Origin: Trypanosoma brucei
Taxonomy: Eukaryota
Reading direction: 5' to 3'
Assembly: GCA_000002445.1 (NCBI GenBank)
Contig: CM000208.1
Coordinates: 2,912,001-2,976,000 of the forward strand
DNA: 64,000 bases
Below the pieces are notes generated by a model that worked only from the letters and a program-made list of their open reading frames with translations, was not told the origin of the DNA and did no database searches. Made by a program: the position numbers and the translations under genes. The first letter of the stretch is position 1; every line of letters starts with the position of its first letter. Positions 18,691-54,321 of this stretch are shown here, piece after piece.

Positions 18691-18923
18691 CCCTTAATCC
18701 TGCCTTCCACTATTACTAAACACGGATTCACTCCAGGATTCCCTAATGTTGAAACGGCACAAGAAGGCATCAGAATGAAGTATGTATGATGAAAAGAAAT
18801 GCAAATTTTCGCCTCCAGCAACAAGGAATAAACTCCCCAAGTGTAAAAAAGAAAAGGAGAGTACGAAAAAAAAACATGAAAAAATACATCGAAAGAAGAG
18901 TACATTGCCAACTCAACCGAGTC

Positions 18924-20669: not shown

Positions 20670-21600
20670 ACACCCTACTGCCAGTCACGCTAGAAAATGT
20701 AACGAAAACGTAGTGCCAGGGAAAAGCAGAGAGGCGAGAATGAAAGAAACACAAACCTTGGTGAAGGGCCTTCGCGACCTCATTTTTCAAAAGAAGGGAG
20801 GGTCACGGCGAAATATCCACTATGGGGAAAGCTAACTGCCCACGAGTGAAAGTACAAAGGTGCGTCCAACGCTGGATAAAGAGACCGAATGTAAGCAAAC
20901 ATTCTTTATTGCAACGGGGCTTTTCAGGATGGATACCGTATTTGTGTATTTGCACATATGTATATGCGCCTGATCACATGTACTGAAGGATATTTATAGC
21001 TCACAATGGCGGCGAACACACATCTGTCCACAGTTCAATGGAGGGGTAGGAATAACCACTGCATTAGGTGCCCTCCCCTATGGTTTTGAACTGGTCGGTC
21101 TTTGAAAAAGTTCGTGACTACGTTATCTCCGCATTAGTCGGGGTTGAAGCCGAGTCGCTACTGCTCGCCTCGCGTCTCGCCTTTGAGATCGACGGCTGCC
21201 CAACAGTGGAACGAACCGTTGTCAAACACAACAAAATAAATCACTCGTGACATTAGTGACGGTGCGAAGATTGCTATTGCAATGCGCCTCTCCCATGACT
21301 GTCCACATTTCCTCCTCTGCCTAACTAGCTTTGTTGGACGCCACAGAAATCAAGTATGGAAAGTACAGAGTTACCGCCGGCCACTGGTGCACCGCATGGA
21401 TGGCACAGCAACGTGAAGAGTATTGCAACAATAGCGAGTCGTATCAACATTTGACAGGAAAAGGTATTCTAACGCTCCCCACAGGCGCGGACAAGTACAC
21501 ACACAGAGAGAGATAAAAGCAAAAAAGAAAGTTAGGGGACCGGGAAGGAAAAAAAGGAGTAAAGAACCAGGTCACTCCTGAATATGTACATGGTAGAGAT

Positions 21601-22377
21601 TTATACTAACGGCATAGCATCGTCCGCAGCGGCCTTTGCTGCGGCTTCCTGCTGCCGTCGTCTCTCAATCTCCTCAAATGCCGCCCGCTCTAGTTCCTCC
21701 TTTGTAGGTGGGACATATGTTCCCTGCAACCGAGAGGCCAATTCCGGTAAGCTACATTCTTTAGGGAGGAGCGAACGGAGTTGTTGCACCTCCGCGGGAT
21801 TCAAAACGCTCTCCCCATTGGTTGTGACCAACTCGACTAATTCATCGATGGTAATGCTGTCATCGCCTTCCGTGTCCAGAATTCTTAGCGCCCCCAATAC
21901 CTCTTTTTGCTCAGTCACCGCGTCGCGATAAATTTCCTCAACGCATGATATAAATATATTCCAGTCAATGTTCTTTACCTCTTCAGCAGGTGTAATCTTT
22001 ACGGGCTGCTGCGGATTTTGCCCATCCTGCACTGTTCCTTCAGCAGAGCGATCCCCAGCTAATTTCGTGTTTTTCTTCATTGCAACTGTACCTATTCGCT
22101 TCCTATCCTTCATCTCCTCGCGCCGCTGCTCCTTGTCTCGTCTTATTTCCTCGTTGCGTCGCCACTCCTCCAGTCGAAGCACGGGCTCCGCCATCCGCTC
22201 ACGCAAATAGTCGATATCATCTTGTGTTGGATTCATCCCCATGGCCCGCAGTAGCGTCACGCAGTCCAAAAGTGAAACCAGCTTCTCCTTGTTTTCAAGC
22301 AGGTTGAACGTGACCTCCGCGTCATTGTACACTTCACTTGTCAACACACGGGGGTGGCGCCGCTGACGTTCTTCCAT
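21601..22377 (-). CDS. EF-hand-like domain protein with a charged coiled region (259 aa after trimming)
   Basis: EF-loop-like DTEGDDSITIDE and an upstream helix-loop-helix. The six-frame ORF (to 22698) was trimmed to MEERQRR (ATG revcomp at 22375-22377). The upstream part translates low-complexity UTR. Confidence 0.45.
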   Translation of the reverse strand: MEERQRRHPRVLTSEVYNDAEVTFNLLENKEKLVSLLDCVTLLRAMGMNPTQDDIDYLRERMAEPVLRLEEWRRNEEIRRDKEQRREEMKDRKRIGTVAMKKNTKLAGDRSAEGTVQDGQNPQQPVKITPAEEVKNIDWNIFISCVEEIYRDAVTEQKEVLGALRILDTEGDDSITIDELVELVTTNGESVLNPAEVQQLRSLLPKECSLPELASRLQGTYVPPTKEELERAAFEEIERRRQQEAAAKAAADDAMPLV

Positions 22378-23247
22378 TCCCGCGACGCTGCTGCGTATCT
22401 GTATCTTCACACTTCCTCTACAATACGCTATCAAAACAACAAAAATAAATCCTGTGCACAACCAAAGTGGATACCAAACAAGGACAGGATAGCTAGAGAA
22501 GGGACAAACTGGGGAATCTAGCACAGAACAAAAGTTTTGAATGTCGAGAGGCGTAGCCCAACTCCGTTCTGAAACCTGGAGAGTAACTCGCAGGGACATG
22601 AAAGAGTAAAATACAATAAAAATTATTATATCCAAGAACAAAAATGAAAACGAACGTGGCCCCTCCGCGGACCAGCCGGTGCCCAACTTAGTACTCATAT
22701 CTCCTCATGCAGTACACGGAGGTGAATAAATTCGTAATGATGGTAGTGATAACAGCGGTGGAAGCGGAAAGGAGAATGGGGAATATCAATCTAATAAAAG
22801 TCTAACCCAGTTGAGCAGATGAATTTTCTCCACAACGAAAAGCTCGTTTCGACTGTCTCGCTCCCATTCCTTCTCTTTCGTCCCTTTCACTGTCATTACC
22901 TGCCCCGTGTTTCTCTTTTCGTTTCTCCTTCTTTTAAAATTTGTCATAAGTCAACACACCTGCGAGTGGCATGTATTTGGCAACGGTAACGATCCTATTA
23001 ATAATTACAACATCAAATTAATAACGATGATGATCATAATATTAATAATACGCTACATGTTGGACGAATATACAAATGAAGAATTATTATGCAGTCAAAA
23101 TAAAATGGAATGAAAAGAATGGGCATCATGTCACCACAAGCATTAGGTTTTTCTTTCGCATATTCATTTTCATTTGCTCACTCATTTACTTTTCACTGCT
23201 TTATTACACGTTACTGGCTCGTTTTCTGTTTGATGCTTATGAAGAAA

Positions 23248-40479: not shown

Positions 40480-43400
40480 TCAGAAGAAAAGAGCGGGCCT
40501 CTCCACCAAGGTCGAGTTTGTGCGTGCAAATTTGCTACGTGCCGGTGCATCACGCTGCTTATTCAGTGAAAAGGTCCGTCGCCGCACATAACCATTCTGG
40601 TTGTTGCTACTGCTTCGGGAATCCCAACGCATCCCTGCAGCAGCATCAACCGACACTGAAGACCTCGACCGCAACAATCCTTTGGGTGCGTCACGCTGCG
40701 GGCGCTGGGAATGTCCTCTCTTTAACGAAGTTTGAAGGGATGTAGCGCGTATCAATTGGGAAGTGGTGATGGGCTGTCCAACCTGACACCGCAGCAACTC
40801 AGGATTCCGTTTCATTGCCTTCCGCCTGACAAGGTCGCTATGGTGCTTGTGGGCTGTTACGGTTGCCGTTACGTGCTGTCGCCGCCGTTCCGCGAGTCCG
40901 AGTCGGCGTGACACCTCATCGGTCGTACGCTGCTTCACCGCCAGTTGGTGCTGAAGCACAGCTAATTTCATGTCCCGTTCCCGAGACTCGTGCTGGTGGC
41001 GGTTTTTCAGTACGTGTTTATTAGCCTCCTGAATGCGTATTTCCTCTTTTGCCTTATTCAGTTTAGCAGTCAGCTCCGCCACTTCACGCTGAGAATTGCA
41101 ATATTCTTCGTTCAACTTTTCCCACTCAATCTGCACTTCACGCAGTTGCCTCTCAGATGTGCGTTGCTTCATATTGTGCTCCTCAATGTATGTGTAGAGG
41201 TGAGCAATTTGTCCTTCCATCTGTTCCCGTTCATCCATATAATCCTGGTCAAGTGCAACGAGGCTCTTGTATTCGTTCTCTCGGTGTAGCAATCGCTCTT
41301 GCAAGAGCCGGTTCTCACACTCCAAGTCCTCAATCCGATAGTCGCGCTCTCTACTGCAAAGGATTTCATCTTCTAGTTGCTTCTTCAGGGTTCGCACCTG
41401 GCTGCGCAACTGCACATTCTCGTGGCCCTGGTGTAGCGATGCGGATCCAGAGTTTTCCACTACGTCACCACCATACCCCACTGACATGAAGCGTGCCTTC
41501 TGTTGTGGAGTTAGCAGAATCCATATACTACGAAATGCCTCGTCTTTTTTCTGCATCTCCTGAAGTAAGGCGCAGTGCTCCTTGTTGCCTCGTTCAAGTT
41601 CCTCCTCTGTACTCGTCAAACGACTTTGCAGTACATCACAGAGATTTCTCTGATCCTCAAAGGCAGTTGTCAATCGTTCACATTCTTCAGCGCGCTCACC
41701 AGACGCCTTGAACCACGCAACTGTCTCTTCACGAATAACACGTTCAGTATATTCATGAAGAAGTTTAAGGTTGAGCTCTTCCAATTGGTCCGTTAATCCC
41801 GTGTTTTCGTTCGTCACCCTCTCTAACCGTTGCCGAAGTTCCTCGCAGCTTTTTTCCGTCTGCACAATATGTTTTCTTGCCTCCAGGAGCTCTGCCATAG
41901 TACGCTTCTGCTCACTGCGCATCGCTTCCACGGTCTTCGCCATTACCTGCTTTTGCTCGCTCATGCTATCAAACTGTTCTTGCATCCACCGAAAAGTGTC
42001 CGTTACCTTATGAAGCAACTCACTAGTTCCTACCTCCAATACGGCCTCTTCAAGAGTTTGTTGCGCTTCATCGCACTGCCGTACTCGTTGCTCCAGTTCC
42101 TGCCGAAGCTCCTCGGCTACGTCCCCACGCGACTCCAGTGAACAGAGATCCCGTTCGCGTTCACGCAAGACACTCTGGAAAATAGCACACTGGCGCTCTA
42201 GAGCCACCACATGGTCCCGAATCACTGGATCTTCGGCGCTGTTGGCGCCAGATGCATTGGCTAGTGAGTTTTCCGTGTTCGTTGCCGCATCACCATTTAC
42301 CTTCTGGGGTTGTTCAGGTTCCTTTCCTTCATGATCCATACCATCGTTTGAATTGGGAGCATGCTTCTCCCTTCGTGTTAGGGATGAAAGTTGCTTTTCA
42401 ATGTTCACCTCTTCTTGAAGTGTGGCGACACGGTGGCGCAAAGTTTCAATTTCCCGCGTAAGATTTCCATAAGCTTCCTCAAAACTACACCCATTCCTCA
42501 TAAGCAAATCTCTTACTCTTTCTTTTGTCTTTGTTAGAACGCACCGTTTTGCCGTTGTAGCAAAGTCAAGCGAACTCTTTGTTTCCGCAGCACTGCGTTT
42601 GTCGAGTGACACAGTCGCGATAAGAAGAAGATAACAGTCAGCGAGAGTCGATGCAAGGTAAAGCGTGAGCATCGACTCTCGGACTGGAAGTACATCCGCC
42701 TCCTCGGCCGTAGCCCTAATTACGGAGTGCAGAACTGAAAGTGACTTGTTTATGGCAATAGCTTCCCCTAGTTCGTCACCCACCACTCCTGTTCGCTTTA
42801 CACGCTCCGACCCTGCCAAATCACCCAAAGTTAAGCGACTCGTAAACACTGGAATACCGCCAACACACTTTGTTACATGTAGGGAAAGCAGTACATGCGA
42901 CCGGGAACTGCGTGCGTTTAACGCGTGGTGACTGACAAAACGCTTTCTCTGCGCTTCAGCGATGCGTGCAATTGCAAGAGTTGCATTCTGCACGAGGTAA
43001 CGGGGCTCGGGAACCGCGGTGCCCAAAGGTTTTTGGAGCAGCATACCGTGTTCTGATTTCCCTCTCCCCAGCAAGTTGTAGGCATTGTTGGTGTATATTT
43101 GTATATACCACAATTCTATAATGTCGTTCTCAGCGTCAAGGTTGTCAAACAAAGCATTGATAAAGGCGGGTGCCAAAACGTTAATTGTGTGCGTCTTCCC
43201 GCTCCCCGTTTGCCCGTAGCAGAGGACACAAGCATTGAAGCCAGCCCTCAGCTGCTCAACTATACCCGGAACTATCGACTCACATATTTCGCTATCACTC
43301 ACTGACGGGCCAAAGACACGACCAAACTCATACGTACGTTGCACCTCTTTTGCCCCATCGGCAGTTGGTGTTATGACTGTAAGCATGTTCCCCTCTTCGG

Positions 43401-43887
43401 TTCCGGCGATGGGTGCGAAACAGGGTACCGGCCGAGTTGCGCCCCTTCCGGTCACCACAGGCCCGCCGTTAATATTGGAACTACTAGAAAGGCTCATGTT
43501 TGAGAGACTACCCCTCTCATCGCCCTGTCCGCCACCACCAATATTTGCTGCCTCTTCGGCACTTTTGGCACATTGGTTGGCACTGCCGAGACGGGCACTT
43601 TCTCGCCGACAACCTGTCCGTGGTGTTGTTGCTAACGTTCCAGTTTCAATAACGTACCTCAGGAGATTGCTATTGTCACTAGAAGGTTTTACACGGACTG
43701 CAACCCTCACAGCATCCTGGCTACTCTGCGACCCCCGCGGTGTCCGCTCAACCTTTCCACGGCAGCGGACAGGCGTACTCCCCTCCCGTTTCACTGTTGA
43801 CTGAGTTGTCACCGGTGTCGTCGCACCGATTTGAGGTATACCCGCCAGTACCTGAGCTGAGGATGAAGAAGACATCATCTGCCTCAC
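40480..43887 (-). CDS. Kinesin with a motor domain in the N-terminal third (after an extension of about 50 aa) and a long coiled-coil stalk
   Basis: GQTGSGKTHTI, SSRSHVLLSL, LGDLAGSERV. The C-terminal half is heptad-rich (EEL/QQL repeats). 1135 aa. Confidence 0.9.
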   Translation of the reverse strand: MRQMMSSSSSAQVLAGIPQIGATTPVTTQSTVKREGSTPVRCRGKVERTPRGSQSSQDAVRVAVRVKPSSDNSNLLRYVIETGTLATTPRTGCRRESARLGSANQCAKSAEEAANIGGGGQGDERGSLSNMSLSSSSNINGGPVVTGRGATRPVPCFAPIAGTEEGNMLTVITPTADGAKEVQRTYEFGRVFGPSVSDSEICESIVPGIVEQLRAGFNACVLCYGQTGSGKTHTINVLAPAFINALFDNLDAENDIIELWYIQIYTNNAYNLLGRGKSEHGMLLQKPLGTAVPEPRYLVQNATLAIARIAEAQRKRFVSHHALNARSSRSHVLLSLHVTKCVGGIPVFTSRLTLGDLAGSERVKRTGVVGDELGEAIAINKSLSVLHSVIRATAEEADVLPVRESMLTLYLASTLADCYLLLIATVSLDKRSAAETKSSLDFATTAKRCVLTKTKERVRDLLMRNGCSFEEAYGNLTREIETLRHRVATLQEEVNIEKQLSSLTRREKHAPNSNDGMDHEGKEPEQPQKVNGDAATNTENSLANASGANSAEDPVIRDHVVALERQCAIFQSVLRERERDLCSLESRGDVAEELRQELEQRVRQCDEAQQTLEEAVLEVGTSELLHKVTDTFRWMQEQFDSMSEQKQVMAKTVEAMRSEQKRTMAELLEARKHIVQTEKSCEELRQRLERVTNENTGLTDQLEELNLKLLHEYTERVIREETVAWFKASGERAEECERLTTAFEDQRNLCDVLQSRLTSTEEELERGNKEHCALLQEMQKKDEAFRSIWILLTPQQKARFMSVGYGGDVVENSGSASLHQGHENVQLRSQVRTLKKQLEDEILCSRERDYRIEDLECENRLLQERLLHRENEYKSLVALDQDYMDEREQMEGQIAHLYTYIEEHNMKQRTSERQLREVQIEWEKLNEEYCNSQREVAELTAKLNKAKEEIRIQEANKHVLKNRHQHESRERDMKLAVLQHQLAVKQRTTDEVSRRLGLAERRRQHVTATVTAHKHHSDLVRRKAMKRNPELLRCQVGQPITTSQLIRATSLQTSLKRGHSQRPQRDAPKGLLRSRSSVSVDAAAGMRWDSRSSSNNQNGYVRRRTFSLNKQRDAPARSKFARTNSTLVERPALFF

Positions 43888-44336: not shown

Positions 44337-44655
44337 CCGTCGCCTCAACTTCACCACGTACGACATTCGACCCCATCTTCGGCATGTGATCCGTTCCCAT
44401 CGTCACAGGAAGTGACTCACCGGTCAGTGCTGCTTCGTCAACGTCAATCACACCTTCGTTAATCGTGCAGTCAGCGGGAACGGCGGAACCAGACCCAAGC
44501 TTCACAAGGTCACCGGGAACCAGTAATGCGGCGTCTATCTGCTGCCAGGTACCGTCACGGTAAGCGGTCGCAATAGGTTTCAAAGAGTTCTTCAGTGCAG
44601 CGACCGCATCACCAGCTTTTATCGTCTCATACCACCCAATGAGAGCGTTAGCGAG
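44337..44655 (-). pseudogene. 319-bp relic of a P-type H+-ATPase gene (codons about 119-224 of the intact copies), flanked by unrelated sequence
   Basis: About 99% nucleotide identity to 53224-53541 and 49512-49830. The homology ends abruptly at both sides. It carries MGTDHMPK where both intact copies have MGTEHMPK. Confidence 0.85.
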
Positions 44656-46631
44656 TAATGTTAGAACACCGAACCACCATGTTCTGGCTATTTTTTTGTA
44701 CTACTAATACTCCTTTCCACCCCTTTGTTCGTGTGTGTGGAGGGAGTATTAAAACCAGAGCACGAACACTGCGTGCACTGCAGAGAACATATGTGGAAAT
44801 TCAAATATTAACTGTGACGAGATTGAACATTTGGTGCGGTTCCTTCTTGACATAACCGCGTATCAGAAGGAACACGTTAGGGAATTTCCTAACCGACCAT
44901 AGTTTTTCGCCACATGCACACGTGGCTTATTCCTTTGCTACCTCCTTCATGCGGCAATTGCCGCCGCGCACCGTAACGGTAAACCCAGTGTATGACCTCT
45001 CAAGAAATACAATGGTATGCATTTTCGCAGGATGACAAAAGAAGAGGACCTATATCATCTTTGTCCCTTCGCAATTTGCTCCGCTCCCCTTGAAAAAAAA
45101 AAAATCACATGACCGTACCGCCAAGAAACTTTCACCGCGAGAAGAAAAAAGAGAAGAATAAAATGAGCTTCGAGGGTCAGAAGCAGTTTGAAGGTAACAG
45201 GTGAGCGTAGCGAAAGGAACAACGGCCTAAATAGAGTGATATTCTCCCACAATAACCTTTTCCTCTTCGCTTATTTGGCGTTCCCTTACTGATAGCACTT
45301 TTACCGGTAAACAAACTACCACGCATGCGACCGACCACAGGTTTTGAAAAAAAAAAGCTTTAGATTTTATTTAACAATCTCATTTTCCCCTCTGACTACG
45401 TCCGCACGGAAAAAAAATCAGAAAATAATTTAAGAGAAAGGTACAAAAAAATAAAGGAAAAACGTGCCAACACATTGCCCTCGTTTCTACTGGTTTTGTT
45501 TTATTTGATACCTTCGATACTGCGCCCCAAAACGACGGAAACCGCGAGTCAGTTCAGTAAAAGATTTGTGCACGATCCAAGGTTTGTAAGATTTCTTTTT
45601 CATCCTTTACCGTTTCTTTGGGAAGGATGGATGGAAATGCGACCGTCATCTCCCTTTTTTCTGTCTCCACGCGCTCCCGCTCAAATTTCCCTTTACTCCT
45701 CCTCTTTTTTCTTCGAAAGGGTGGGGCATTCGCATACGCGTACGTGCAGAAATACACTTACGGATATTTGCAATAATGTGCAAAGGGAGATGATCGGCAC
45801 GTTAAAGGAGAAAACGAAAAATATTGCATCACAACCGAATTACTCCCGCGGCGCCACTCGCCCCTTTTTTTTCTCCCAAGTACCCAATACCACAAACCAC
45901 CCACTTTGAAAAGTTCCCCCCCTTTTTTTCCTTAGCCTCTGCTTTTTCCTAACCTCACTCCCCTGGCAATAATGTAGTTCCTCTTCTCCATTTCTCTTTC
46001 TCTCCCCATAAATGCCCGGGTTACACTGAGCACCAAAATATTTCACACAATGGTGCGGTGCTACTACGATGAAGCGAAGGAAAAAAAAAAGATGGATAAC
46101 CTCACAAATTTCACTCGTGTTTTCTTCTCAATTTCTCATTGATTGCATTCGTAAGCTTTCCCCCTTTTACATATATCTTAAAATCTTTTTACAATAAACA
46201 CTACTCGCTTCCCTCCTCTTTCCGCTATCATCAATGTAAGTACAACAAAATTACGCAAGCACCCAAGCTGTAAACGCGTGCTTCGTTCATAAGAAAATGA
46301 CGCTCTATCTTTTTTTTCCTTTACCTTTCATTACATTATCAATCTTTCGCAGTGTGTCAGTCCTATCGTTTGCCCTCCCACACACACACTTACACACACA
46401 CCATCATTACCAACTACTAAAAGTTCAAAACAAATAAACAATAACAACGATAATAAAGTCACCTCGTCATCTCTCCACTTTACGAGAGGGAATCATGACC
46501 GGTCCATCGAAATAATGCCGAGGCACATCGGAGGTTGCGAAATGGCCAGTTTTTTTCTCATTACACTTCGTCCCGTGTTTAGGAATTTTTTTAAACTGAA
46601 GGCTCTAATTACAGAGTCGACCGCGCGAGAA

Positions 46632-46670
46632 CCACCACCACCACCACTACCACCACCACCACCACCACCA
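46632..46670. repeat. (CCA)n trinucleotide microsatellite, about 13 units with one CTA interruption, followed by an A-rich tract
   Basis: Read directly from the sequence. Confidence 0.9.
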
Positions 46671-47444
46671 AAAAAACAAACAAACAAACAAAGCGTTTAC
46701 GATAAAAAAAAAAAAGAATTAAGGAAAAGATCTTTTATTTCTCAGCATACACTCATGCTACTGCTGAAGCGTGCGACTGGGGTGACAAAATTAGAGGTTT
46801 ACGCTGCCGCTAATGGACAGGAGAACATCAGGCAACTGTTGAAATGCATATGGATGAGAACAATACCACACGCATGCAGCTCGCTACGTCCACGGTTGCG
46901 AGGGGAAATTGAATTATAACGACGGAACAATACCAAAAAAATCCGCTTTCCCACAAGTTAATGCACTGAAACATCGCAAAAAAAAGATGCATGAAAAGAA
47001 TATCCTCTCCAACAACAATACCCCACCTCTAGAGTTACCGATCACAGCCATGTCGCACACATAAAATACTCACAATAAAGACCGTTATATGTCTTTTCAT
47101 TAAAGAAAAGAAAAAAAATTAATAAAGCCAACATATAAGGGAAATAATGAGGATGAGGCAACAACGGAAGCGCACTGTTCAACCCCACAACAGCTTCGTG
47201 ATTCCCCACCTTCACCCACCCACCTTCACGCTCATTCAAAGAAAAAAAACATACACAAAAACTTACTAAGCATCCCTGATTAAAATGAAGGCCAACAGAT
47301 ACCACATTTCTAACCCCAATTCGCGAAAAGGAAAATAACACACGCACGCGCCTCCATATTAGCACAAACCAAACGAGAAAAGCGCAGCTTTATAAAAAAA
47401 AATCAATGTGATTGTTCCGAAAGGAGAAAAAAAATATAATATTT

Positions 47445-50183
47445 TTAAATAGGTTCCTTAGACGACTTAGCATTATAAACAATTTCTTTCCCACCGCTTG
47501 CACGAGACACACAGCCAAATATGTCGAAGGCCTCCATTAGCATGTGAGTCAAAACCTTCACGACATCTTGGACGATCCACCACAAAATGCAATATATCCA
47601 AACCCAAAGTGGATACAATCTATCCGCAACAGTTTCACCTCGTGCAAGACCCTCGACAGGAACACCATCAGAACTTGATTTCTTCCAAACCGAGGCGGCG
47701 ATCGTCGAGATTACCAGTGAGATCACCGCACCGACCAGCAGTATAGTGCCCGGAGCCATCGAGAAAAAGAACCTTCCACCAGTACGTGAGGAGAATAGAG
47801 TCAAGAAGTCAGAAATCGATATCTTGAGGTACAGGAGAGTAACTATTTTGCCCTCCTTCAAGGAAGGAATGTTGAGTTTGCCAAACCAAGAGTTGGGGTA
47901 CCTTTTCTCATCATAAGCATCAAGAGCCATCCACAGCAGTAGTAGAGACGAGGCACAGGCAACAACAGACATAATTATAGCGCTTGTGAACACAACAGGA
48001 ATGTTCCAACGCTGCGGAAGCTTCGAGGGCACCACACGGTCATATCCAATGGTCATCAGGCACCCGTCGTTCAGGAGCGTGATCAGCATGAACATCATCA
48101 CTGGGAGGTAGAAAACCTGGAATTCGGGGTTCTCAATTCCATAGTCGTGAGGTGTCAACGAGAAGCAGGCGATAAAAAAGAAGCACACCAACTGCATTGT
48201 GGCGGAAATACGGTATGTTAGAAAAGACAACATACGTTGGAACACCTGGCGCGATACAAACATCGCATCAACAACAACACTCAAACCAGGGTCTGTCAGC
48301 ACCATGTCTGCCGCGGCACGAGCGGCGTCTGTCGCGCCCTGTACAGCAATACCGACGTCCGCACGTTTCAGGGCAGGCGCGTCGTTCACACCATCACCAG
48401 TCATCGCGCACGTGTACCCGCGCTGCCGAAGCGCCTCAACGATCAAAAACTTGTGCTCGGGGAAGACCTGTGCGAACCCGCCGACACTCAGCATCATGTC
48501 ACCGTACTTCTCGCCAAGGTCGCTGGGCATATCGTTGACATCCACCTTGGGAAGCTTCTCGGCGGTTAGGATGTTCGGATCAAGGTCCAGCATGCGGCAC
48601 ATTTCCTTCGCAATGAGCACATGGTCACCAGTGATCATCTTTACATCCACGCCATACTGCCTACTACGGCGAATTGTCTCCTTCGTGTCCGGGCGCGGGG
48701 GATCGAGGAACGTCAGGATTCCACAGAGATGCCAACGACCCGCGGAGTCTGTTTTCGCCACAGAGAGGCATCGGATACCGCGCGACGCCAATTTGTCAAT
48801 GATATCGACCACAGAGTCATTGATCTCATCTTGATTGTGCACCATCTCTATAATAACGTGTGGTGCGCCTTTCGTCACACTGAACTTCTCACCACTTCGC
48901 TTATCAACCAATGTAGCGGCCGTTCGTTTCGTCGTTGGATCAAATGGCACGAACTCAAGCTGCTCGTAGTTGTCGCACTCGTCCAGATCTGCAGCACCAA
49001 GTACCATCGTGTCCAGTGCATCACGGGGAGGCTCACGCCACTTTGCTGCAAGCGCGGAAAGTACAAGCAGTGAACGCAGATCGTGACCCTTCTCAAATGT
49101 GAAGCACTGTTCCTGAATCTCCATCTTGTTCAACGTCAGAGTACCGGTTTTGTCAGAGCAAAGCATGTTCACACCAGACATTGTCTCAATGGCTGTCAGT
49201 CTCGTCACAATGATTTTGTGCTTCGACAGCTTCTTTGAACCCACAGCGAGAGTGGTCGTCACAACAATCTCCAAAGCAATAGGAATGGATACCACAAGCA
49301 CTACAACAGCGAACTGCAAGGCATCACGGAACTTTTGCTTGAAATTTACCATCAGATAGATGAAGCAAATCAAGCAAAGTACGAACGAGAAACTCGACAA
49401 GATGACCATCACGCGCATGAGAATTATACGGATACTGCCAATGTCAGCCTCCACAGACTGAAGTAGCGTTGCCGTCTTGCCAAAAAAGGTGCTCTGACCT
49501 GTGTATTGCACCGTCGCATCAACTTCACCACGTACGACATTCGACCCCATCTTCGGCATGTGTTCCGTTCCCATCGTCACAGGAAGTGACTCACCGGTCA
49601 GTGCTGCTTCGTCAACGTCAATCACACCTTCGTTAATCGTGCAGTCAGCGGGAACGGCGGAACCAGACCCAAGCTTCACAAGGTCACCGGGAACCAGTAA
49701 TGCGGCGTCTATCTGCTGCCAGGTACCGTCACGGTAAGCGGTCGCAATAGGTTTCAAAGAGTTCTTCAGTGCAGCGACCGCATCACCAGCTTTTATCGTC
49801 TCATACCACCCAATGAGAGCGTTAGCGAGCTGAATGCCGAGCAGGACGGCACCATCAGCAAAGTGCTGTAACGCAAACTGGATTATTATGACAATCCACA
49901 AAACAATCGGCATAGGGCCCCATAGATTCCGCAAAAATATCAGCCAACTGGGTGTTTTCTTTTCCGGCAGCTCGTTACGACCGTATTTAAGCAACAACTC
50001 CTCTGCTTCCGCGGATGTCAATCCCTTCGAGGGCGGCACCAGTGGTACACTGCCATCATCACCCTCACGGTGCTCACTGATAGCCTTTGATAGCACAGAT
50101 TGGCGGCGTTGCGGTTTCTGTGGCTTGTGCACTTCACCGGCGTCGTTGGTTCCCGGAACACCCTTTGGTCCAGTATCCCCCAT
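47445..50183 (-). CDS. Plasma-membrane-type P3A H+-ATPase (proton pump), tandem copy A, 912 aa
   Basis: TGES (ALTGESLPV), DKTGTLT phosphorylation site, TGDGVNDAPAL and MITGDHV motifs, 10 TM segments. Matches trypanosomatid HA1/HA2/HA3 and Leishmania H1A/H1B. Confidence 0.95.
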   Translation of the reverse strand: MGDTGPKGVPGTNDAGEVHKPQKPQRRQSVLSKAISEHREGDDGSVPLVPPSKGLTSAEAEELLLKYGRNELPEKKTPSWLIFLRNLWGPMPIVLWIVIIIQFALQHFADGAVLLGIQLANALIGWYETIKAGDAVAALKNSLKPIATAYRDGTWQQIDAALLVPGDLVKLGSGSAVPADCTINEGVIDVDEAALTGESLPVTMGTEHMPKMGSNVVRGEVDATVQYTGQSTFFGKTATLLQSVEADIGSIRIILMRVMVILSSFSFVLCLICFIYLMVNFKQKFRDALQFAVVVLVVSIPIALEIVVTTTLAVGSKKLSKHKIIVTRLTAIETMSGVNMLCSDKTGTLTLNKMEIQEQCFTFEKGHDLRSLLVLSALAAKWREPPRDALDTMVLGAADLDECDNYEQLEFVPFDPTTKRTAATLVDKRSGEKFSVTKGAPHVIIEMVHNQDEINDSVVDIIDKLASRGIRCLSVAKTDSAGRWHLCGILTFLDPPRPDTKETIRRSRQYGVDVKMITGDHVLIAKEMCRMLDLDPNILTAEKLPKVDVNDMPSDLGEKYGDMMLSVGGFAQVFPEHKFLIVEALRQRGYTCAMTGDGVNDAPALKRADVGIAVQGATDAARAAADMVLTDPGLSVVVDAMFVSRQVFQRMLSFLTYRISATMQLVCFFFIACFSLTPHDYGIENPEFQVFYLPVMMFMLITLLNDGCLMTIGYDRVVPSKLPQRWNIPVVFTSAIIMSVVACASSLLLLWMALDAYDEKRYPNSWFGKLNIPSLKEGKIVTLLYLKISISDFLTLFSSRTGGRFFFSMAPGTILLVGAVISLVISTIAASVWKKSSSDGVPVEGLARGETVADRLYPLWVWIYCILWWIVQDVVKVLTHMLMEAFDIFGCVSRASGGKEIVYNAKSSKEPI

Positions 50184-50225
50184 TTGTATATTCCTTTGGC
50201 CTTTACTACCTTAGATGTTACAAGT

Positions 50226-50247
50226 CTTCGGGAAGGGAAGAAACGAG
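50226..50247 (-). promoter_or_regulatory. Polypyrimidine tract plus AG acceptor region (trans-splicing signal) immediately upstream of H+-ATPase copy A
   Basis: Minus-strand sequence ctcgtttcttcccttcccgaag is followed by AG dinucleotides within 40 nt of the ATG. The same block is conserved upstream of copy B. Confidence 0.4.
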
Positions 50248-51132
50248 TGCACAAGTCAGTGTTTCAGCAGTTGCACGACACCGGTTAATTCGCGACACGG
50301 AACGTCGAAAGAAAGGACGCAAAATCCCCCAGGATACGTTGTTGGGCCAAGTGACCTCAATGGTTATCAAAGGTATTAATGAACTATAGGTCCGGAAGTT
50401 GTTGGTAAACTCGACCCTCCCGCATTGAAAGTGTACATACAAGTAGCCACATGCACATTAGAGCTGCAATGAGCAACATCACAAAAACGCCTTTACACTC
50501 TCCATCCAATTCCCTTTCTTTTCAGTATTTTTCTTACTTTTGCTTGCAATTATTCTCTTATTAATGTTGGATACATTATTCGGTGTTGGTGGCACCAATA
50601 CCCTGCCCCCCCTTACTGCACTTTCCCATACTTTCCCCCCACCCATCATGCAAAGTTATACATCACTTATGCGATGTTGTTTACATTACCCCGTACACAT
50701 CCACTTCTTGTGTCCCTCCATCCCCCCACAGGCCATTCGTCGCGGGTTCTCCACCAAATGTCCCTGCTGCGTTGCGGGTCCCTCTGCACACACGCTGAGT
50801 TGTCGCACAGCATCCAATCACCCAACTCAAACAACCGGAGAAGAGGGAAGGTAAAGAGTTAAACGCTCTGCAGTACGCAACGCATCAAAAGCACATCTGA
50901 AATGAGAAACACATGGACGTGTAATTGACTGAATCCATGACACGGCCTATAAACTCGGTAAAGCATCCACTTTGCGTGCCACACAAGTGCAGCACGCGAA
51001 GTTCTTCCTTTCCCACTCCAGTCCGTTGCTACCGAGATCGCAGAGGAACATTCCACTCACAACGAGCAGGAAACAAACTAGGGCACGTCAGACGGAGGAA
51101 CATCATTGTCACGTCATGTTACTTTAGATTCA

Positions 51133-53895
51133 TTATAGCGTAGGTTCTTTAGGTGCACCACCCTCACCATCTTTACACACGCTGCCACACTCAACATCGG
51201 CCCCTCTCCCAGAACGCGACACACAGCCAAATATGTCGAAGGCCTCCATTAGCATGTGAGCAAGAACCTTCACGACATCTTGGACGATCCACCACAAAAT
51301 GCAATATATCCAAACCCAAAGCGGCAACAGCTTCGCTGCGGTATCTCCTCCAACCGCAAGACCCTCCGTCGGCACACCATCAGAACTTGATTTCTTCCAA
51401 ACCGAGGCGGCGATCGTCGAGATTACCAGTGAGATCACCGCACCGACCAGCAGTATAGTGCCCGGAGCCATCGAGAAAAAGAACCTTCCACCAGTACGTG
51501 AGGAGAATAGAGTCAAGAAGTCAGAAATCGATATCTTGAGGTACAGGAGAGTAACTATTTTGCCCTCCTTCAAGGAAGGAATGTTGAGTTTGCCAAACCA
51601 AGAGTTGGGGTACCTTTTCTCATCATAAGCATCAAGAGCCATCCACAGCAGTAGTAGAGACGAGGCACAGGCAACAACAGACATAATTATAGCGCTTGTG
51701 AACACAACAGGAATGTTCCAACGCTGCGGAAGCTTCGAGGGCACCACACGGTCATATCCAATGGTCATCAGGCACCCGTCGTTCAGGAGCGTGATCAGCA
51801 TGAACATCATCACTGGGAGGTAGAAAACCTGGAATTTGGGGTCCTCAATTCCATAGTCGTGAGGTGTCAACGAGAAGCAGGCGATAAAAAAGAAGCACAC
51901 CAACTGCAGCGTGGCGGAAATACGGTATGTTAGAAAAGACAACATACGTTGGAACACCTGGCGCGATACAAACATCGCATCAACAACAACACTCAAACCA
52001 GGGTCTGTCAGCACCATGTCTGCCGCGGCACGAGCGGCGTCTGTCGCGCCGTGTACAGCAATACCGACGTCCGCACGTTTCAGGGCAGGCGCGTCGTTCA
52101 CACCATCACCAGTCATCGCGCACGTGTACCCGCGCTGCCGAAGCGCCTCAACGATCAAAAACTTGTGCTCGGGGAAGACCTGTGCGAACCCGCCGACACT
52201 CAGCATCATGTCACCGTACTTCTCGCCAAGGTCGCTGGGCATATTATTGACATCCACCTTGGGAAGCTTCTCAACGGTTAGGATGTTCGGATCAAGGTCC
52301 AGCATGCGGCACATTTCCTTCGCAATGAGCACATGGTCACCAGTGATCATCTTTACATCCACGCCATACTGCCTACTACGGCGAATTGTCTCCTTCGTGT
52401 CCGGGCGCGGGGGATCGAGGAACGTCAGGATTCCACAGAGATGCCAACGACCCGCGGAGTCTGTTTTCGCCACAGAGAGGCATCGGATACCGCGCGACGC
52501 CAATTTGTCAATGATATCGACCACAGAGTCATTGATCTCATCTTGATTGTACACCATTTGTAGTATCACGTGTGGTGCGCCTTTCGTCACACTGAACTTC
52601 TCACCACTTCGCTTATCAACCAATGTAGCGGCCGTTCGTTTCGTCGTTGGATCAAATGGCACGAACTCAAGCTGCTCGTAGTTGTCGCACTCGTCCAGAT
52701 CTGCAGCACCAAGTACCATCGTGTCCAGTGCATCACGGGGAGGCTCACGCCACTTTGCTGCAAGCGCGGAAAGTACAAGCAGTGAACGCAGATCGTGACC
52801 CTTCTCAAATGTGAAGCACTGTTCCTGAATCTCCATCTTGTTCAACGTCAGAGTACCGGTTTTGTCAGAGCAAAGCATGTTCACACCAGACATTGTCTCA
52901 ATGGCTGTCAGTCTCGTCACAATGATTTTGTGCTTCGACAGCTTCTTTGAACCCACAGCGAGAGTGGTCGTCACAACAATCTCCAAAGCAATAGGAATGG
53001 ATACCACAAGCACTACAACAGCGAACTGCAAGGCATCACGGAACTTTTGCTTGAAATTTACCATCAGATAGATGAAGCAAGCCAAGCAAAGTACGAACGA
53101 GAAACTCGACAAGATGACCATCACGCGCATGAGAATTATACGGATACTGCCAATGTCAGCCTCCACAGACTGAAGTAGCGTTGCCGTCTTGCCAAAAAAG
53201 GTGCTCTGACCTGTGTATTGCACCGTCGCCTCAACTTCACCACGTACGACATTCGACCCCATCTTCGGCATGTGTTCCGTTCCCATCGTCACAGGAAGTG
53301 ACTCACCGGTCAGTGCTGCTTCGTCAACGTCAATCACACCTTCGTTAATCGTGCAGTCAGCGGGAACGGCGGAACCAGACCCAAGCTTCACAAGGTCACC
53401 GGGAACCAGTAATGCGGCGTCTATCTGCTGCCAGGTACCGTCACGGTAAGCGGTCGCAATAGGTTTCAAAGAGTTCTTCAGTGCAGCGACCGCATCACCA
53501 GCTTTTATCGTCTCATACCACCCAATGAGAGCGTTAGCGAGCTGAATGCCGAGCAGGACGGCACCATCAGCAAAGTGCTGTAACGCAAACTGGATTATTA
53601 TGACAATCCACAAAACAATCGGCATAGGGCCCCATAGATTCCGCAAAAATATCAGCCAACTGGGTGTTTTCTTTTCCGGCAGCTCGTTACGACCGTATTT
53701 AAGCAACAACTCCTCTGCTTCCGCGGATGTCAATCCCTTCGAGGGCGGAAGCAGCGGTACACTGCCATCATCACCCTCACGGTGCTCACTGATAGCCTTT
53801 GATAGCACAGATTGGCGGCGTTGCGGTTTCTGTGGCTTGTGCACTTCACCGGCGTCGTTGGTTCCCGGAACACCCTTTGGTCCAGTATCCCCCAT
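51133..53895 (-). CDS. Plasma-membrane-type P3A H+-ATPase (proton pump), tandem copy B, 920 aa, with a different C-terminal tail
   Basis: Same motifs as copy A and near-identical over about the first 860 codons. The last 60 codons diverge (..GSVCKDGEGGAPKEPTL versus ..KEIVYNAKSSKEPI). Confidence 0.95.
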   Translation of the reverse strand: MGDTGPKGVPGTNDAGEVHKPQKPQRRQSVLSKAISEHREGDDGSVPLLPPSKGLTSAEAEELLLKYGRNELPEKKTPSWLIFLRNLWGPMPIVLWIVIIIQFALQHFADGAVLLGIQLANALIGWYETIKAGDAVAALKNSLKPIATAYRDGTWQQIDAALLVPGDLVKLGSGSAVPADCTINEGVIDVDEAALTGESLPVTMGTEHMPKMGSNVVRGEVEATVQYTGQSTFFGKTATLLQSVEADIGSIRIILMRVMVILSSFSFVLCLACFIYLMVNFKQKFRDALQFAVVVLVVSIPIALEIVVTTTLAVGSKKLSKHKIIVTRLTAIETMSGVNMLCSDKTGTLTLNKMEIQEQCFTFEKGHDLRSLLVLSALAAKWREPPRDALDTMVLGAADLDECDNYEQLEFVPFDPTTKRTAATLVDKRSGEKFSVTKGAPHVILQMVYNQDEINDSVVDIIDKLASRGIRCLSVAKTDSAGRWHLCGILTFLDPPRPDTKETIRRSRQYGVDVKMITGDHVLIAKEMCRMLDLDPNILTVEKLPKVDVNNMPSDLGEKYGDMMLSVGGFAQVFPEHKFLIVEALRQRGYTCAMTGDGVNDAPALKRADVGIAVHGATDAARAAADMVLTDPGLSVVVDAMFVSRQVFQRMLSFLTYRISATLQLVCFFFIACFSLTPHDYGIEDPKFQVFYLPVMMFMLITLLNDGCLMTIGYDRVVPSKLPQRWNIPVVFTSAIIMSVVACASSLLLLWMALDAYDEKRYPNSWFGKLNIPSLKEGKIVTLLYLKISISDFLTLFSSRTGGRFFFSMAPGTILLVGAVISLVISTIAASVWKKSSSDGVPTEGLAVGGDTAAKLLPLWVWIYCILWWIVQDVVKVLAHMLMEAFDIFGCVSRSGRGADVECGSVCKDGEGGAPKEPTL

Positions 53896-53937
53896 TTGTA
53901 TATTCCTTTGACCTTTACTACCTTAGATGTTACAAGT

Positions 53938-53959
53938 CTTCGGGAAGGGAAGAAACGAG
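53938..53959 (-). promoter_or_regulatory. Conserved polypyrimidine tract and splice-acceptor region upstream of H+-ATPase copy B
   Basis: Identical to the copy A block. 5' flank homology between the copies extends about 100 nt upstream of the ATG and then breaks. Confidence 0.4.
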
Positions 53960-54033
53960 TGCACAAGTCAGTGTTTCAGCAGTTGCACGACACCGGTGGA
54001 TTTGCATCATCTGATCTGAATCTCTTTGTTTCT

Positions 54034-54187
54034 ATACCACCCAATGAGAGCGTTAGGGAGCTGAATGCCGAGCAGGACGGCACCATCAGCAAAGTGCTGT
54101 AACGCAAACTGGATTATTATGACAATCCACATAACAATCGGCATAGGGCGCCATAGATTCCGCAAAAATATCAGCCAACTGGGTGTT
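54034..54187 (-). pseudogene. 154-bp relic of H+-ATPase (codons about 75-126) located just upstream of copy B's 5' flank
   Basis: 4 mismatches in 154 bp against 53516-53669. It is followed directly by a (GTT)7T9 microsatellite and is in sense orientation relative to the intact genes. Confidence 0.8.
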
Positions 54188-54214
54188 GTTGTTGTTGTTG
54201 TTGTTTTTTTTTTT
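54185..54214. repeat. (GTT)7 followed by T9
   Basis: Read directly. It abuts the right-hand ATPase relic. Confidence 0.9.
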
Positions 54215-54321
54215 GCGGAAGCTTGTTGAGTTGTTATTTGAGTATCGTCGCAGTTCTCTTTTGTTTTATTACCATTTTTGTTATTTTGACGGGGTTTTTT
54301 TTGCTGCTTTTACTGTGATTT

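What the first reader, a model, noticed from the sequence alone, without database searches (positions are those of the whole stretch)
47445..53997. Two tandem H+-ATPase genes kept near-identical over most of the gene and 5' flank, with divergent C-terminal tails and 3' flanks
Copies A (912 aa) and B (920 aa) differ by only a handful of substitutions across about the first 860 codons (for example GEVDAT/GEVEAT, LCLICF/LCLACF, HVIIEMVHNQ/HVILQMVYNQ, VQGATD/VHGATD). About 100 nt of 5' flank, including the polypyrimidine tract, are also conserved. The last 60 codons (the cytosolic regulatory tail) and the 3' flanks are unrelated. This pattern indicates concerted evolution or gene conversion that homogenises the catalytic core while isoform-specific tails and 3' UTRs are preserved. 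That fits established knowledge for trypanosomatid H+-ATPase isoforms (TbHA1-3, L. donovani H1A/H1B), which differ mainly in the C-terminal autoinhibitory region and in stage regulation. The conversion tract boundaries are unusually sharp here and can be mapped to the nucleotide.
Basis: partly seen in the sequence, partly recalled or inferred. Interest (0 to 1): 0.55.

Follow-up and report, generated by a model that had tools for sequence, protein, structure and literature searches.

The report
Known trypanosome proton-pump gene pair
These are the two already-characterised plasma-membrane proton-pump genes of Trypanosoma brucei (TbHA3 then TbHA1), kept almost identical by gene conversion except for an outward-facing loop, the last ~20 codons and the 3' UTRs: a real but ordinary case of concerted evolution in a trypanosome tandem array.

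Summary
The window is T. brucei brucei TREU927 chromosome 10. Copy B (51133-53895, minus strand, 920 aa) is TbHA3 (Tb927.10.12510). Copy A (47445-50183, 912 aa) is TbHA1 (Tb927.10.12500). Identity starts sharply 102 nt upstream of each ATG. Codons 1-841 differ at 22 nt (dS 0.015). The 3' end is a mosaic, not 60 unrelated codons. Codons 842-857, a loop between membrane helices M9 and M10, are saturated (pS 0.69). Codons 858-894 are 95.5% identical. Only the last 18/26 codons diverge, and both tails still end in K-E-P. The 3' flanks are unalignable. Orthologues are saturated at silent sites, so the core was homogenised after the ends diverged, which supports gene conversion or unequal crossover. 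Both the genes and the phenomenon are already described.

New details lie outside the finding. Two ATPase coding fragments flank the pair (f1 54031-54187, f2 44337-44655). f2 co-varies with the resident genes between subspecies. The published third isoform, TbHA2, is exactly what a crossover between f1 and TbHA3 would produce, and its start codon lies inside the upstream gene. The T. b. gambiense assembly has one B/A hybrid gene here. Low novelty.

The parts
51133..53895 (-). Copy B = TbHA3 (Tb927.10.12510, XP_823456.1 = AAP86973.1), 920 aa P3A H+-ATPase; the upstream member of the pair in the direction of transcription
   Evidence: ORF; exact match to the named proteins; TIGR01647 1043 bits against a cutoff of 615.5; identification in review PMC6884021
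47445..50183 (-). Copy A = TbHA1-type (Tb927.10.12500, XP_823455.1), 912 aa P3A H+-ATPase; the downstream member
   Evidence: ORF; exact match; one residue different from the strain 427 TbHA1 clone P0001; TIGR01647 1048 bits
53896..53997 (-). Shared 5' flank of B (102 nt) with polypyrimidine tract and first AG (putative spliced-leader acceptor, inferred)
   Evidence: Identical to A's flank except one mismatch; identity drops to background within 2 nt upstream
50184..50285 (-). Shared 5' flank of A (102 nt)
50286..51132 (-). B-specific 3' flank / internal spacer (847 nt), unrelated to A's 3' flank; absent from the T. b. gambiense DAL972 assembly
   Evidence: Smith-Waterman score no better than shuffles; DAL972 collinearity jumps from 51214 to 50285
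44656..47444 (-). A-specific 3' flank (2789 nt, no long ORF)
47613..47660 (-). A codons 842-857: hypervariable patch in the M9-M10 loop (the B equivalent is 51325-51372)
   Evidence: pS 0.69, pN 0.40. Lies between predicted helices 813-832 and 857-886, where block-mean pLDDT is 72-90. The AHA2 alignment ends at M9
51325..51372 (-). B codons 842-857: hypervariable loop patch
47502..47612 (-). A codons 858-894 (M10 and the start of the cytosolic tail): second, older homogenised block, 5 nt differences from B 51214-51324
   Evidence: pS 0.135
47445..47501 (-). A-specific tail, codons 895-912 plus stop (...RASGGKEIVYNAKSSKEPI*)
   Evidence: predicted disordered, pLDDT below 50
51133..51213 (-). 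B-specific tail, codons 895-920 plus stop (...RSGRGADVECGSVCKDGEGGAPKEPTL*)
54031..54187 (-). f1: relic ATPase fragment, CDS nt 228-385 (codons 76-129), 97.5% identical to A and B. It lies between the upstream gene and B and supplies the junction of the published TbHA2
54188..54368 (-). X: sequence that encodes the 'TbHA2-specific' N-terminus in strain 427. It is frameshifted in TREU927. Its ATG (54368) lies inside the upstream 850-aa ORF (stop at 54322-54324). The 35 nt 5' of an A11(CAA)6 run are a 69%-identical, collinear relic of CDS nt 192-227
53998..54030 (-). j1: 33-nt unique joint between f1 and B's shared 5' flank; unrelated to the 33 nt upstream of A's flank
44337..44655 (-). f2: isolated ATPase fragment, CDS nt 355-673 (codons 119-225), 99.7% identical to B and 99.4% to A. 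It sits 449 nt upstream of the kinesin ATG, has sharp edges and shows no residual homology in its flanks
54322..56874 (-). Upstream neighbour U (850-aa conserved hypothetical); syntenic in T. b. gambiense, T. vivax and T. cruzi
40480..43887 (-). Downstream neighbour, kinesin-like gene; syntenic in T. b. gambiense and T. vivax

Best explanation
This is the T. brucei TREU927 chromosome 10 proton-pump locus. TbHA3 (B) is followed 3712 nt downstream by TbHA1 (A), inside one long minus-strand polycistron.

The two genes are old paralogues. Their 3' ends (M9-M10 loop patch, last ~20 codons, 3' UTR) have diverged to saturation. Everything from -102 to codon 841, and separately codons 858-894, has been overwritten by non-reciprocal recombination between the copies (gene conversion and/or unequal crossover).

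On the 5' side, homogenisation stops where homology ends. B's upstream sequence is the neighbouring gene's 3' region, and A's upstream sequence is B's 3' UTR. On the 3' side, it stops where the sequences are too diverged, or where selection disfavours exchange.

The few core differences are small islands, and almost all of them contain an amino-acid replacement. That is the pattern expected if isoform-specific residues resist homogenisation.

The locus is still recombining. T. b. gambiense carries a single B-5'/A-3' hybrid gene. A relic fragment (f2) tracks the resident genes. TbHA2 of strain 427 has the structure of a relic f1 x TbHA3 crossover.

Shown here: sequence identities, boundaries, dS heterogeneity, synteny, the hybrid structures and family membership. 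Inferred: the recombination mechanism itself, selection on the islands, the splice-site role of the shared flank, and differential regulation through the distinct 3' UTRs.
For: Identity:
- Exact protein matches to XP_823455.1 and XP_823456.1/AAP86973.1.
- Review PMC6884021 Tables 1, 2 and 4.
- TIGR01647 equivalog at 1048 and 1043 bits against a cutoff of 615.5.

Homogenisation:
- Core A-B dS 0.015 and dN 0.007. Patch pS 0.69. Tail pS 0.61. Codons 858-894 pS 0.135. Orthologue core pS 0.67-0.76.
- Fisher p = 1e-71 for all differing columns and 1e-20 for synonymous differences; 518-nt identical run.
- 3' flanks unalignable.
- B's tail is a genuine diverged ATPase tail. It shares the terminal K-E-P motif found across trypanosomatids.
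- T. brucei has no other P3A locus that could act as an ectopic donor (review).

Continuing exchange:
- The DAL972 single gene is B-type at codons 47-49 and 615 and A-type elsewhere.
- f2 has G at CDS nt 666 in TREU927 (B = G) but T in DAL972 (gene = T).
- TbHA2 equals X + f1 + B, carrying the two f1-specific residues.

Islands:
- 12 of 22 gaps between differences are <= 10 nt; 0 of 200000 permutations reach this.
- 9 of 10 islands carry a replacement. MK-like contrast against orthologues gives p = 0.02 and 0.004.

Generality:
- The T. cruzi syntenic array shows the same mosaic. Copies 1 and 2 are 99.6% identical including the spacer. Copy 3 diverges at CDS nt 2721 into a different tail and 3' flank. 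Copy 4 diverges 5' of nt 60.
- L. donovani H1A/H1B differ at 20 residues, 15 of them in the last 37 (review).
- Gene conversion in T. brucei arrays is documented generally in PMC1855330.
Against: - Only two intact copies and two T. brucei-group assemblies were available, so conversion tracts cannot be tested phylogenetically.
- Orthology of the B-type tail or spacer in another species could not be shown. The tails are too short, no T. congolense DNA was obtainable, and loop characters conflict: A shares E-x-V-A-D-R with T. congolense, but A and B share a derived 'VP'.
- TbHA3 of strain 427 is identical in protein to B, and the strain 427 TbHA1 clone differs from A at one residue. So no exchange has scrambled the 12 core differences since those strains split. 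Conversion is therefore infrequent or counter-selected.
- The 5' boundary may simply be the original duplication boundary.
- The f2 evidence rests on one site.
- The single gene in DAL972 could be an assembly collapse rather than a real crossover.
- Copy number in TREU927 could be under-assembled, and read depth was not testable.
Confidence: 0.85

Rival explanations
1. One historical event produced the chimera, rather than repeated concerted evolution. A single long conversion tract or unequal crossover between two old paralogues is assumed, with no further exchange afterwards.
For: The A/B-specific residues are stable between strains 927 and 427. The core is one nearly continuous block.
Against: - There are three tiers of divergence: the core at 0.87% (isolated single-site differences only ~0.15%), codons 858-894 at 4.5%, and the patch and tail at about 35-50%. 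That implies at least two events of different age.
- f2 site 666 co-varies with the resident genes.
- DAL972 is B-type at codon 615 inside an A-type stretch.
- The TbHA2 structure shows further exchange.
Confidence: 0.12
2. The duplication is recent and there was no conversion. The loop and tail diverged quickly under positive or relaxed selection, and one copy's 3' flank was replaced by a rearrangement.
For: B's tail is strongly derived compared with T. congolense, T. vivax and T. cruzi. T. vivax has one gene, and only one T. congolense protein was recovered. The core is about as diverged as the two subspecies are from each other.
Against: - Silent sites are saturated in the patch and tail (pS 0.6-0.7), which selection on the protein cannot explain.
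- A 111-nt near-identical block lies between two saturated blocks.
- Both tails retain homologous ends.
- Multi-nucleotide islands such as 6 differences in 17 nt do not fit recent point mutation.
Confidence: 0.06
3. The pattern is an assembly artefact, either a duplicated or a collapsed repeat in the TREU927 assembly.
For: Tandem arrays are often mis-assembled. The gambiense genome paper notes that assembled repeat number can be arbitrary (PMC2854126). Read depth could not be checked here.
Against: - Both copies have independent counterparts cloned from another strain. AAP86973.1 is identical to B, and AAP30857.1 is one residue from A.
- The Lister 427 genome also has the pair (review).
- The copies differ by fixed islands, distinct tails and distinct flanks.
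Confidence: 0.02
4. Purifying selection alone keeps two ancient copies alike, without recombination.
For: The protein is highly conserved, with dN of about 0.1 even between T. brucei and T. cruzi.
Against: Silent sites and the 102-nt non-coding 5' flank are also nearly identical (dS 0.015), whereas orthologues are saturated at silent sites.
Confidence: 0.01

Closest known systems
T. brucei TbHA1/TbHA2/TbHA3 (Luo, Fang & Docampo 2006, J Biol Chem 281:21963, as summarised in review PMC6884021)
   Same: These are the same genes. B is identical in protein to TbHA3 (920 aa). A is one residue from the strain 427 TbHA1 clone (912 aa). According to the review, they are plasma-membrane P3A proton pumps that complement yeast lacking its own pump, and they form a tandem pair on chromosome 10.
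   Different: TREU927 holds no intact TbHA2. It holds only X + f1, the 5' part from which TbHA2 can be made by crossover with TbHA3. The review does not mention gene conversion, the flanking fragments or the mosaic 3' end. The primary paper could not be read.
Leishmania donovani LDH1A/LDH1B tandem pair (Meade et al. 1987, 1989)
   Same: This is a tandem P3A pump pair with almost identical cores. Its differences are concentrated at the C-terminus (15 of 20 in the last 37 residues), and the two copies are differentially expressed (review).
   Different: Leishmania tails are longer and were shown to be regulatory. In T. brucei there is an extra hypervariable loop patch, and no functional data on the tail were found.
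T. cruzi TcHA1/TcHA2 array at the syntenic locus
   Same: It has the same flanking genes and several copies homogenised over the core, with sharp breaks near both ends of the CDS. The long ...KEPTV* tail is upstream and a short tail with its own 3' flank is downstream.
   Different: There are more copies (at least 4), and whole repeat units including the spacer are homogenised between copies 1 and 2. C-terminal truncation of TcHA1 had no effect on complementation (review).
Concerted evolution in T. brucei tandem arrays (Jackson 2007, PMC1855330), for example the PGK A/B/C and THT1/THT2 arrays
   Same: It describes gene conversion among array members, mosaic copies, end copies with curtailed or different UTRs, and functional isoforms kept within arrays.
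   Different: That survey does not mention this array ('ATPase' occurs 0 times in its text). Here, relic fragments outside the intact genes also take part in exchange.

Membership tests
P3A plasma-membrane H+-ATPase (TIGR01647) | Scores above the curated equivalog cutoff over the full model | tested here: met
   A 1047.8 bits and B 1043.3 bits against a cutoff of 615.5; residues 54-830 cover model positions 1-753 of 755
P3A plasma-membrane H+-ATPase (TIGR01647) | P-type catalytic motifs (DKTGT phosphorylation site, TGES, GDGVND) | tested here: met
   CSDKTGTLT, LTGESLP and TGDGVNDAPALK are present in both translations and invariant in the 36-sequence alignment
P3A plasma-membrane H+-ATPase (TIGR01647) | Closest solved structures are plant and fungal proton pumps | tested here: met
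   AHA2 5ksd at E = 2e-148; PMA1 1mhs and 7vh5 at E = 1e-135. The next family (Mg-ATPase) is at 5e-75
P3A plasma-membrane H+-ATPase (TIGR01647) | Proton pumping / complementation of yeast pma1 | not testable with these tools
   Reported for TbHA1-3 in the literature as summarised by PMC6884021
Tandem array under concerted evolution (gene conversion / unequal crossover) | Paralogues within a genome are far more alike than orthologues between species, at silent sites | tested here: met
   Core dS A-B is 0.015, against pS 0.67-0.76 to T. vivax and T. cruzi. T. cruzi copies 1 and 2 have dS 0.008
Tandem array under concerted evolution (gene conversion / unequal crossover) | Mosaic divergence with sharp breakpoints along the same gene | tested here: met
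   Breaks at -102, at codons 841/842, 857/858 and 894/895; Fisher p = 1e-71
Tandem array under concerted evolution (gene conversion / unequal crossover) | Unconverted parts retain orthology across species (tails group by type, not by species) | tested here: inconclusive
   Long KEPT[LV]* upstream and short tail downstream occur in both T. brucei and T. cruzi. However, the tails are short, the K/N-E-P motif is general, and the loop characters conflict
Tandem array under concerted evolution (gene conversion / unequal crossover) | Evidence of exchange since a dated split (co-variation within genomes) | tested here: inconclusive
   f2 nt 666 follows the resident gene in each subspecies. Eight core sites have A = B differing from the DAL972 gene. 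DAL972 is mosaic at codons 47-49 and 615. These are few sites, and lineage polarity is unknown for most
C-terminal autoinhibitory R-domain of plant and fungal H+-ATPases | Tail truncation or phosphorylation activates the pump; 14-3-3 binding to a penultimate phospho-Thr in plants | not testable with these tools
   The post-M10 tail is only about 34 aa (A) or 42 aa (B), and residues 896-912 are predicted disordered. B ends ...KEPTL* with a penultimate Thr, while A ends ...KEPI*. The review reports no effect of truncating TcHA1

The most novel reading that the evidence does not exclude
The locus is the remnant of a larger array whose decayed end copies (f1 and f2) still exchange sequence with the intact genes.

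The published 'third isoform' TbHA2 would then not be an independent gene. It would be a 519-bp-deletion recombinant (or a PCR chimera) between relic f1 and TbHA3. Its 'unique N-terminus' would be the translated 3' end and 3' UTR of the upstream gene.

The handful of core differences and the M9-M10 loop patch would be isoform-specific residues that selection protects from homogenisation. This includes TbHA1-specific changes at otherwise invariant positions next to the KGAP nucleotide-binding motif.
Probability: 0.45. Interest if true: 0.35.

Novelty: already known. Interest (0 to 1): 0.2.

Why it matters
For the scan, this finding can be closed. It is a real, well-behaved example of a known phenomenon in a published gene pair.

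For trypanosome biology, three points have modest practical value.

1. TbHA1 and TbHA3 can only be told apart in short-read, RNAi or proteomic data by about 22 core nucleotides, a 48-nt loop patch, the last ~60-80 nt of the CDS and the UTRs. Gene-specific claims need care. These include stage-specific translation of Tb927.10.12500 (PMC4210626) and the pentamidine-sensitivity RNAi hit assigned to HA1-3 (PMC6071061).
2. TbHA2 probably should not be counted as a separate locus.
3. The residues that resist homogenisation are the natural candidates for any functional difference between the two pumps. They are the M9-M10 loop, the M5-M6 loop (N685D, E687K), residues 445-449 next to KGAP, and the extreme C-terminus with or without a penultimate Thr.

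Tried and rejected
- Exact-sequence look-ups for TREU927 A and B, the strain 427 TbHA1 and TbHA2 clones, and the T. congolense protein found no contigs. No further T. brucei-group or T. congolense DNA could be compared.
- A protein search with B's last 114 residues returned nothing. This probably reflects the word index rather than true absence.
- The primary TbHA paper (Luo 2006) is not held.
- I considered that f1 and f2 are two halves of one fragment split by insertion of the 9.4-kb gene pair, with a 29-31-nt target duplication, because they overlap at CDS nt 355-385. I rejected this as the preferred model. T. vivax and T. cruzi have functional genes at the same syntenic position, so no insertion is needed. 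f1 also continues 5' into a decayed, collinear relic of CDS nt 192-227, as expected of a decayed array member. The overlap remains unexplained; by my own rough estimate, about 2% by chance.
- I considered deriving TREU927's arrangement from a three-gene array by simple deletion. I rejected it because the 33-nt joint j1 is unrelated to the end of the B-A spacer, and because DAL972 shares the f1-j1 arrangement.
- I considered that B's tail is read-through into former intergenic DNA. I rejected it because of the shared CTAA[G/A]GAACCTA / K-E-P ending and the homologous but saturated loop patch.
- I tested f2's flanks against the CDS, the spacer and A's 3' flank and found no residual homology.
- The AlphaFold model is poor overall (mean pLDDT 63.5, pTM 0.47). 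I used it only for the C-terminal helices, where block-mean pLDDT is 72-90, and did not run a fold search.

Full report
WHAT IS THERE

Every ORF of at least 280 aa in the window lies on the minus strand, which is one trypanosomatid-style polycistron. Two ORFs of 912 aa (A, 47445..50183) and 920 aa (B, 51133..53895) lie head to tail. B is upstream in the direction of transcription, and the ATG-to-ATG distance is 3712 nt.

Both proteins are exact matches to T. brucei brucei TREU927 proteins: XP_823455.1 for A and XP_823456.1 for B. B is also identical to AAP86973.1. The review PMC6884021 identifies the 920-aa protein as TbHA3 (TB8; its Lister 427 counterpart is Tb427.10.12510). It identifies the 912-aa protein as TbHA1 (TB9; Tb427.10.12500). 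According to the review these are a tandem pair on chromosome 10 that complement yeast lacking its proton pump. Both copies pass the curated equivalog cutoff for P3A proton pumps (TIGR01647, 1048 and 1043 bits against 615.5). Their closest solved structures are plant AHA2 and fungal PMA1. The finding therefore concerns a published, characterised gene pair.

CHECKING THE OBSERVATION

Nucleotide alignment confirms the core claim. Identity is 98.35% over 2789 columns, A 50285-47502 against B 53997-51214. Identity starts within 2 nt at position -102 from each ATG. The shared flank has one mismatch and contains the polypyrimidine tract and the first AG.

Codons 1-841 differ at 22 nucleotides and 12 residues.

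The description of the 3' end is not accurate:
- Codons 842-857 are saturated (pS 0.69, pN 0.40).
- Codons 858-894 are again nearly identical (5 nt and 1 aa difference, pS 0.135).
- Only the last 18 (A) or 26 (B) codons diverge (pS 0.61), and both tails end K-E-P on a shared CTAA[G/A]GAACCTA.

The 3' flanks are truly unrelated. The local alignment score is 13, against 13.8 +/- 1.2 for shuffles.

The heterogeneity is overwhelming. Differing columns are 22/2523 in the core and 81/237 elsewhere (p = 1e-71). For synonymous differences, p = 1e-20. A 518-nt identical run is reached by 0 of 20000 permutations.

TOPOLOGY

The AHA2 alignment ends at residue 831, the end of M9. Hydropathy shows M9 at about residues 810-833.

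An AlphaFold model is poor overall (mean pLDDT 63.5) but has block-mean pLDDT of 72-90 for residues 811-890. It gives helices 813-832 and 857-886 with a short hairpin and loop between them. Residues 896-912 have pLDDT below 50.

The hypervariable patch therefore lies in the M9-M10 loop. That loop is extracytoplasmic under the standard ten-helix P-type topology (established knowledge). The variable cytosolic tail is only the last ~18-26 residues.

IS IT CONCERTED EVOLUTION?

Silent-site divergence between A and B is 0.015 in the core. Both copies are saturated against T. vivax and T. cruzi orthologues (pS 0.67-0.76), and the A-B patch and tail are as diverged as orthologues are.

Selection on the protein cannot erase silent differences or keep a 102-nt non-coding flank identical. 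Point mutation after a recent duplication cannot leave a near-identical 111-nt block between two saturated blocks.

B's 3' end is a genuine ATPase 3' end, with a homologous loop and the shared K-E-P terminus that recurs across trypanosomatids. T. brucei has no second P3A locus that could have donated it (review).

The best reading is therefore old paralogues whose 5' 2.6 kb, and separately codons 858-894, were overwritten by recombination between the copies. The three tiers of divergence (core 0.87%, codons 858-894 at 4.5%, patch and tail ~35-50%) indicate more than one event.

The same architecture occurs at the syntenic T. cruzi locus, between the same neighbouring genes. There, copies 1 and 2 are 99.6% identical including the spacer. 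Copy 3 breaks at CDS nt 2721 into a short ...ITEPAN* tail with its own 3' flank. Copy 4 breaks 5' of nt 60. It also occurs in Leishmania H1A/H1B (review). Gene conversion in T. brucei arrays is documented in general by Jackson 2007 (PMC1855330), although that text does not mention this array.

I could not show cross-species orthology of the B-type tail. The tails are short and the loop characters conflict.

THE CORE DIFFERENCES ARE ISLANDS

Twelve of the 22 gaps between successive differences are <= 10 nt, which 0 of 200000 permutations reach. One example is six differences within 17 nt at codons 443-449.

Nine of the ten islands contain an amino-acid change. Replacements are over-represented relative to orthologue divergence (p = 0.02 and 0.004, conservative because orthologue silent sites are saturated).

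A carries unique derived residues at positions invariant elsewhere (V49, E446, H449, M663, N685). B carries A272, L445 and K687.

These differences are stable between strains. The strain 427 TbHA3 clone equals B, and the strain 427 TbHA1 clone differs from A at one residue. This fits selection protecting isoform-specific residues from homogenisation. Relaxed constraint on one copy is not excluded.

Two extra ATPase coding fragments, both in gene orientation, flank the pair.
- f1 (54031-54187) is CDS nt 228-385, 97.5% identical to the genes. It lies between the upstream 850-aa gene U and B.
- f2 (44337-44655) is CDS nt 355-673, 99.7% identical to B. It lies 2.8 kb downstream of A and 449 nt upstream of the kinesin gene.

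Both are present in T. b. gambiense DAL972 and absent from T. vivax.

The 35 nt 5' of f1, beyond an A11(CAA)6 run, are a 69%-identical, collinear relic of CDS nt 192-227 (4 of 300 shuffles reach that score). So f1 looks like the still-converted part of a decayed array member. f2 has no residual homology in its flanks.

At the only A/B-variable site inside f2 (nt 666), f2 has G in TREU927, where B has G. It has T in DAL972, where the sole gene has T. By my own rough estimate the chance of this coincidence is about 0.002, so f2 has probably exchanged sequence with the genes since the subspecies split.

f1 and f2 overlap by about 30 nt of CDS (nt 355-385). I have no convincing explanation for that.

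TbHA2

The third published isoform is AAM55480.1 (905 aa, from the Lister 427 29-13 cell line according to the review). It has B's body and tail but a different N-terminus.

That N-terminus is encoded at 54368-54188, directly upstream of f1. It is frameshifted in TREU927, and its ATG lies inside the U coding sequence, whose stop is at 54322-54324.

From TPSWLIF onward, TbHA2 differs from B at exactly two residues, G89R and L95M. These are the two f1-specific states. The third f1 state, at codon 120, is B-type. TbHA2 is therefore precisely the product of a crossover between f1 and B within codons 96-119, which is a 519-bp deletion. It is either a real allele or a PCR chimera, not a separate locus.

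T. b. gambiense

DAL972 has one gene here. It is collinear with B's upstream side and A's downstream side. It is B-type at codons 47-49 and 615 and A-type elsewhere. That is what an unequal B x A crossover would give. An assembly collapse cannot be excluded, and PMC2854126 itself notes that assembled repeat number can be arbitrary.

A and the DAL972 gene differ at 14 sites. At eight core sites A equals B but differs from the DAL972 gene. At nt 369, the fragments show the gambiense state to be the derived one.

VERDICT

The core and the 5' flank are right. The 3' anatomy and the copy inventory are not.

Conversion and concerted evolution are supported. The 'cytosolic autoinhibitory 60-codon tail' and the description of how TbHA1-3 differ are not.

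The genes, their tandem arrangement and the phenomenon are all already known, so novelty and interest are low. The fragments, the origin of TbHA2 and the replacement-bearing islands are useful but minor additions.

Noticed in passing
window 54031-54368 (f1 + X), compared with protein P0124: The published TbHA2 isoform equals the upstream gene's 3' end and UTR (X), plus relic f1, plus TbHA3. It carries the two f1-specific residues (R89, M95). Its ATG lies inside the upstream 850-aa ORF, and X is frameshifted in TREU927. A 519-bp deletion by f1 x B crossover, or a PCR jump, would create it.
   Followed up: yes
window 44337-44655 (f2); L001 15528-15852: An isolated 319-nt ATPase coding fragment (CDS nt 355-673) lies in the spacer before the kinesin gene and is 99.7% identical to B. 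At nt 666 it matches the resident gene copy in each subspecies (G in TREU927, T in DAL972), which suggests it is still being gene-converted.
   Followed up: yes
window 54031-54060 and 44625-44655: f1 ends and f2 begins within the same ~30 nt of coding sequence (CDS nt 355-385). The two fragments therefore look like one piece split around the 9.4-kb gene pair. No model tested explains this, and coincidence (my rough estimate, about 2%) is not excluded.
   Followed up: partly
L001 (T. b. gambiense DAL972) 9577-16309: There is a single ATPase gene at the locus. It is a B-5'/A-3' hybrid with an extra B-type site at codon 615, and the B-A spacer and B tail are missing. This is either an unequal-crossover deletion or an assembly collapse.
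   Followed up: partly
window 48839-48855 / 52551-52567 (codons 443-449) and the other core islands: Differences in the homogenised core come in tiny clusters that almost always include a replacement. TbHA1 has unique residues at otherwise invariant positions (V49, E446, H449 next to the KGAP motif, M663, N685).
   Followed up: partly
window 47445-47462 and 51133-51153 (C-termini): Both tails end with K-E-P. B ends ...KEPTL* and the T. cruzi 925-aa form ends ...KEPTV*, each with a penultimate Thr as in the plant pump's 14-3-3 site (recalled from memory, not tested). A and T. congolense end ...EPI*. A [K/N/T]-E-P motif recurs in most of the trypanosomatid tails aligned.
   Followed up: partly
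L005 (T. cruzi) 6092-22778: The syntenic T. cruzi array has at least 4 copies with the same kind of sharp homogenisation boundaries, at CDS nt 60 and nt 2721. Copies 3 and 4 carry frameshifts in this assembly, which could be pseudogenes or long-read indel errors.
   Followed up: partly
window 54188-54207: An A11(CAA)6 microsatellite sits exactly at the 5' edge of f1's high-identity block. It separates the 97.5%-identical part from the 69%-identical older relic, so an interruption of homology appears to set the conversion boundary.
   Followed up: partly
window 47445-50183 (Tb927.10.12500): A ribosome-profiling study (PMC4210626) lists only Tb927.10.12500 in a table in its section on changes in translational efficiency. 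I did not see the table legend or the direction of the change. Because the coding sequences are nearly identical, copy-specific read assignment depends on very few positions.
   Followed up: no
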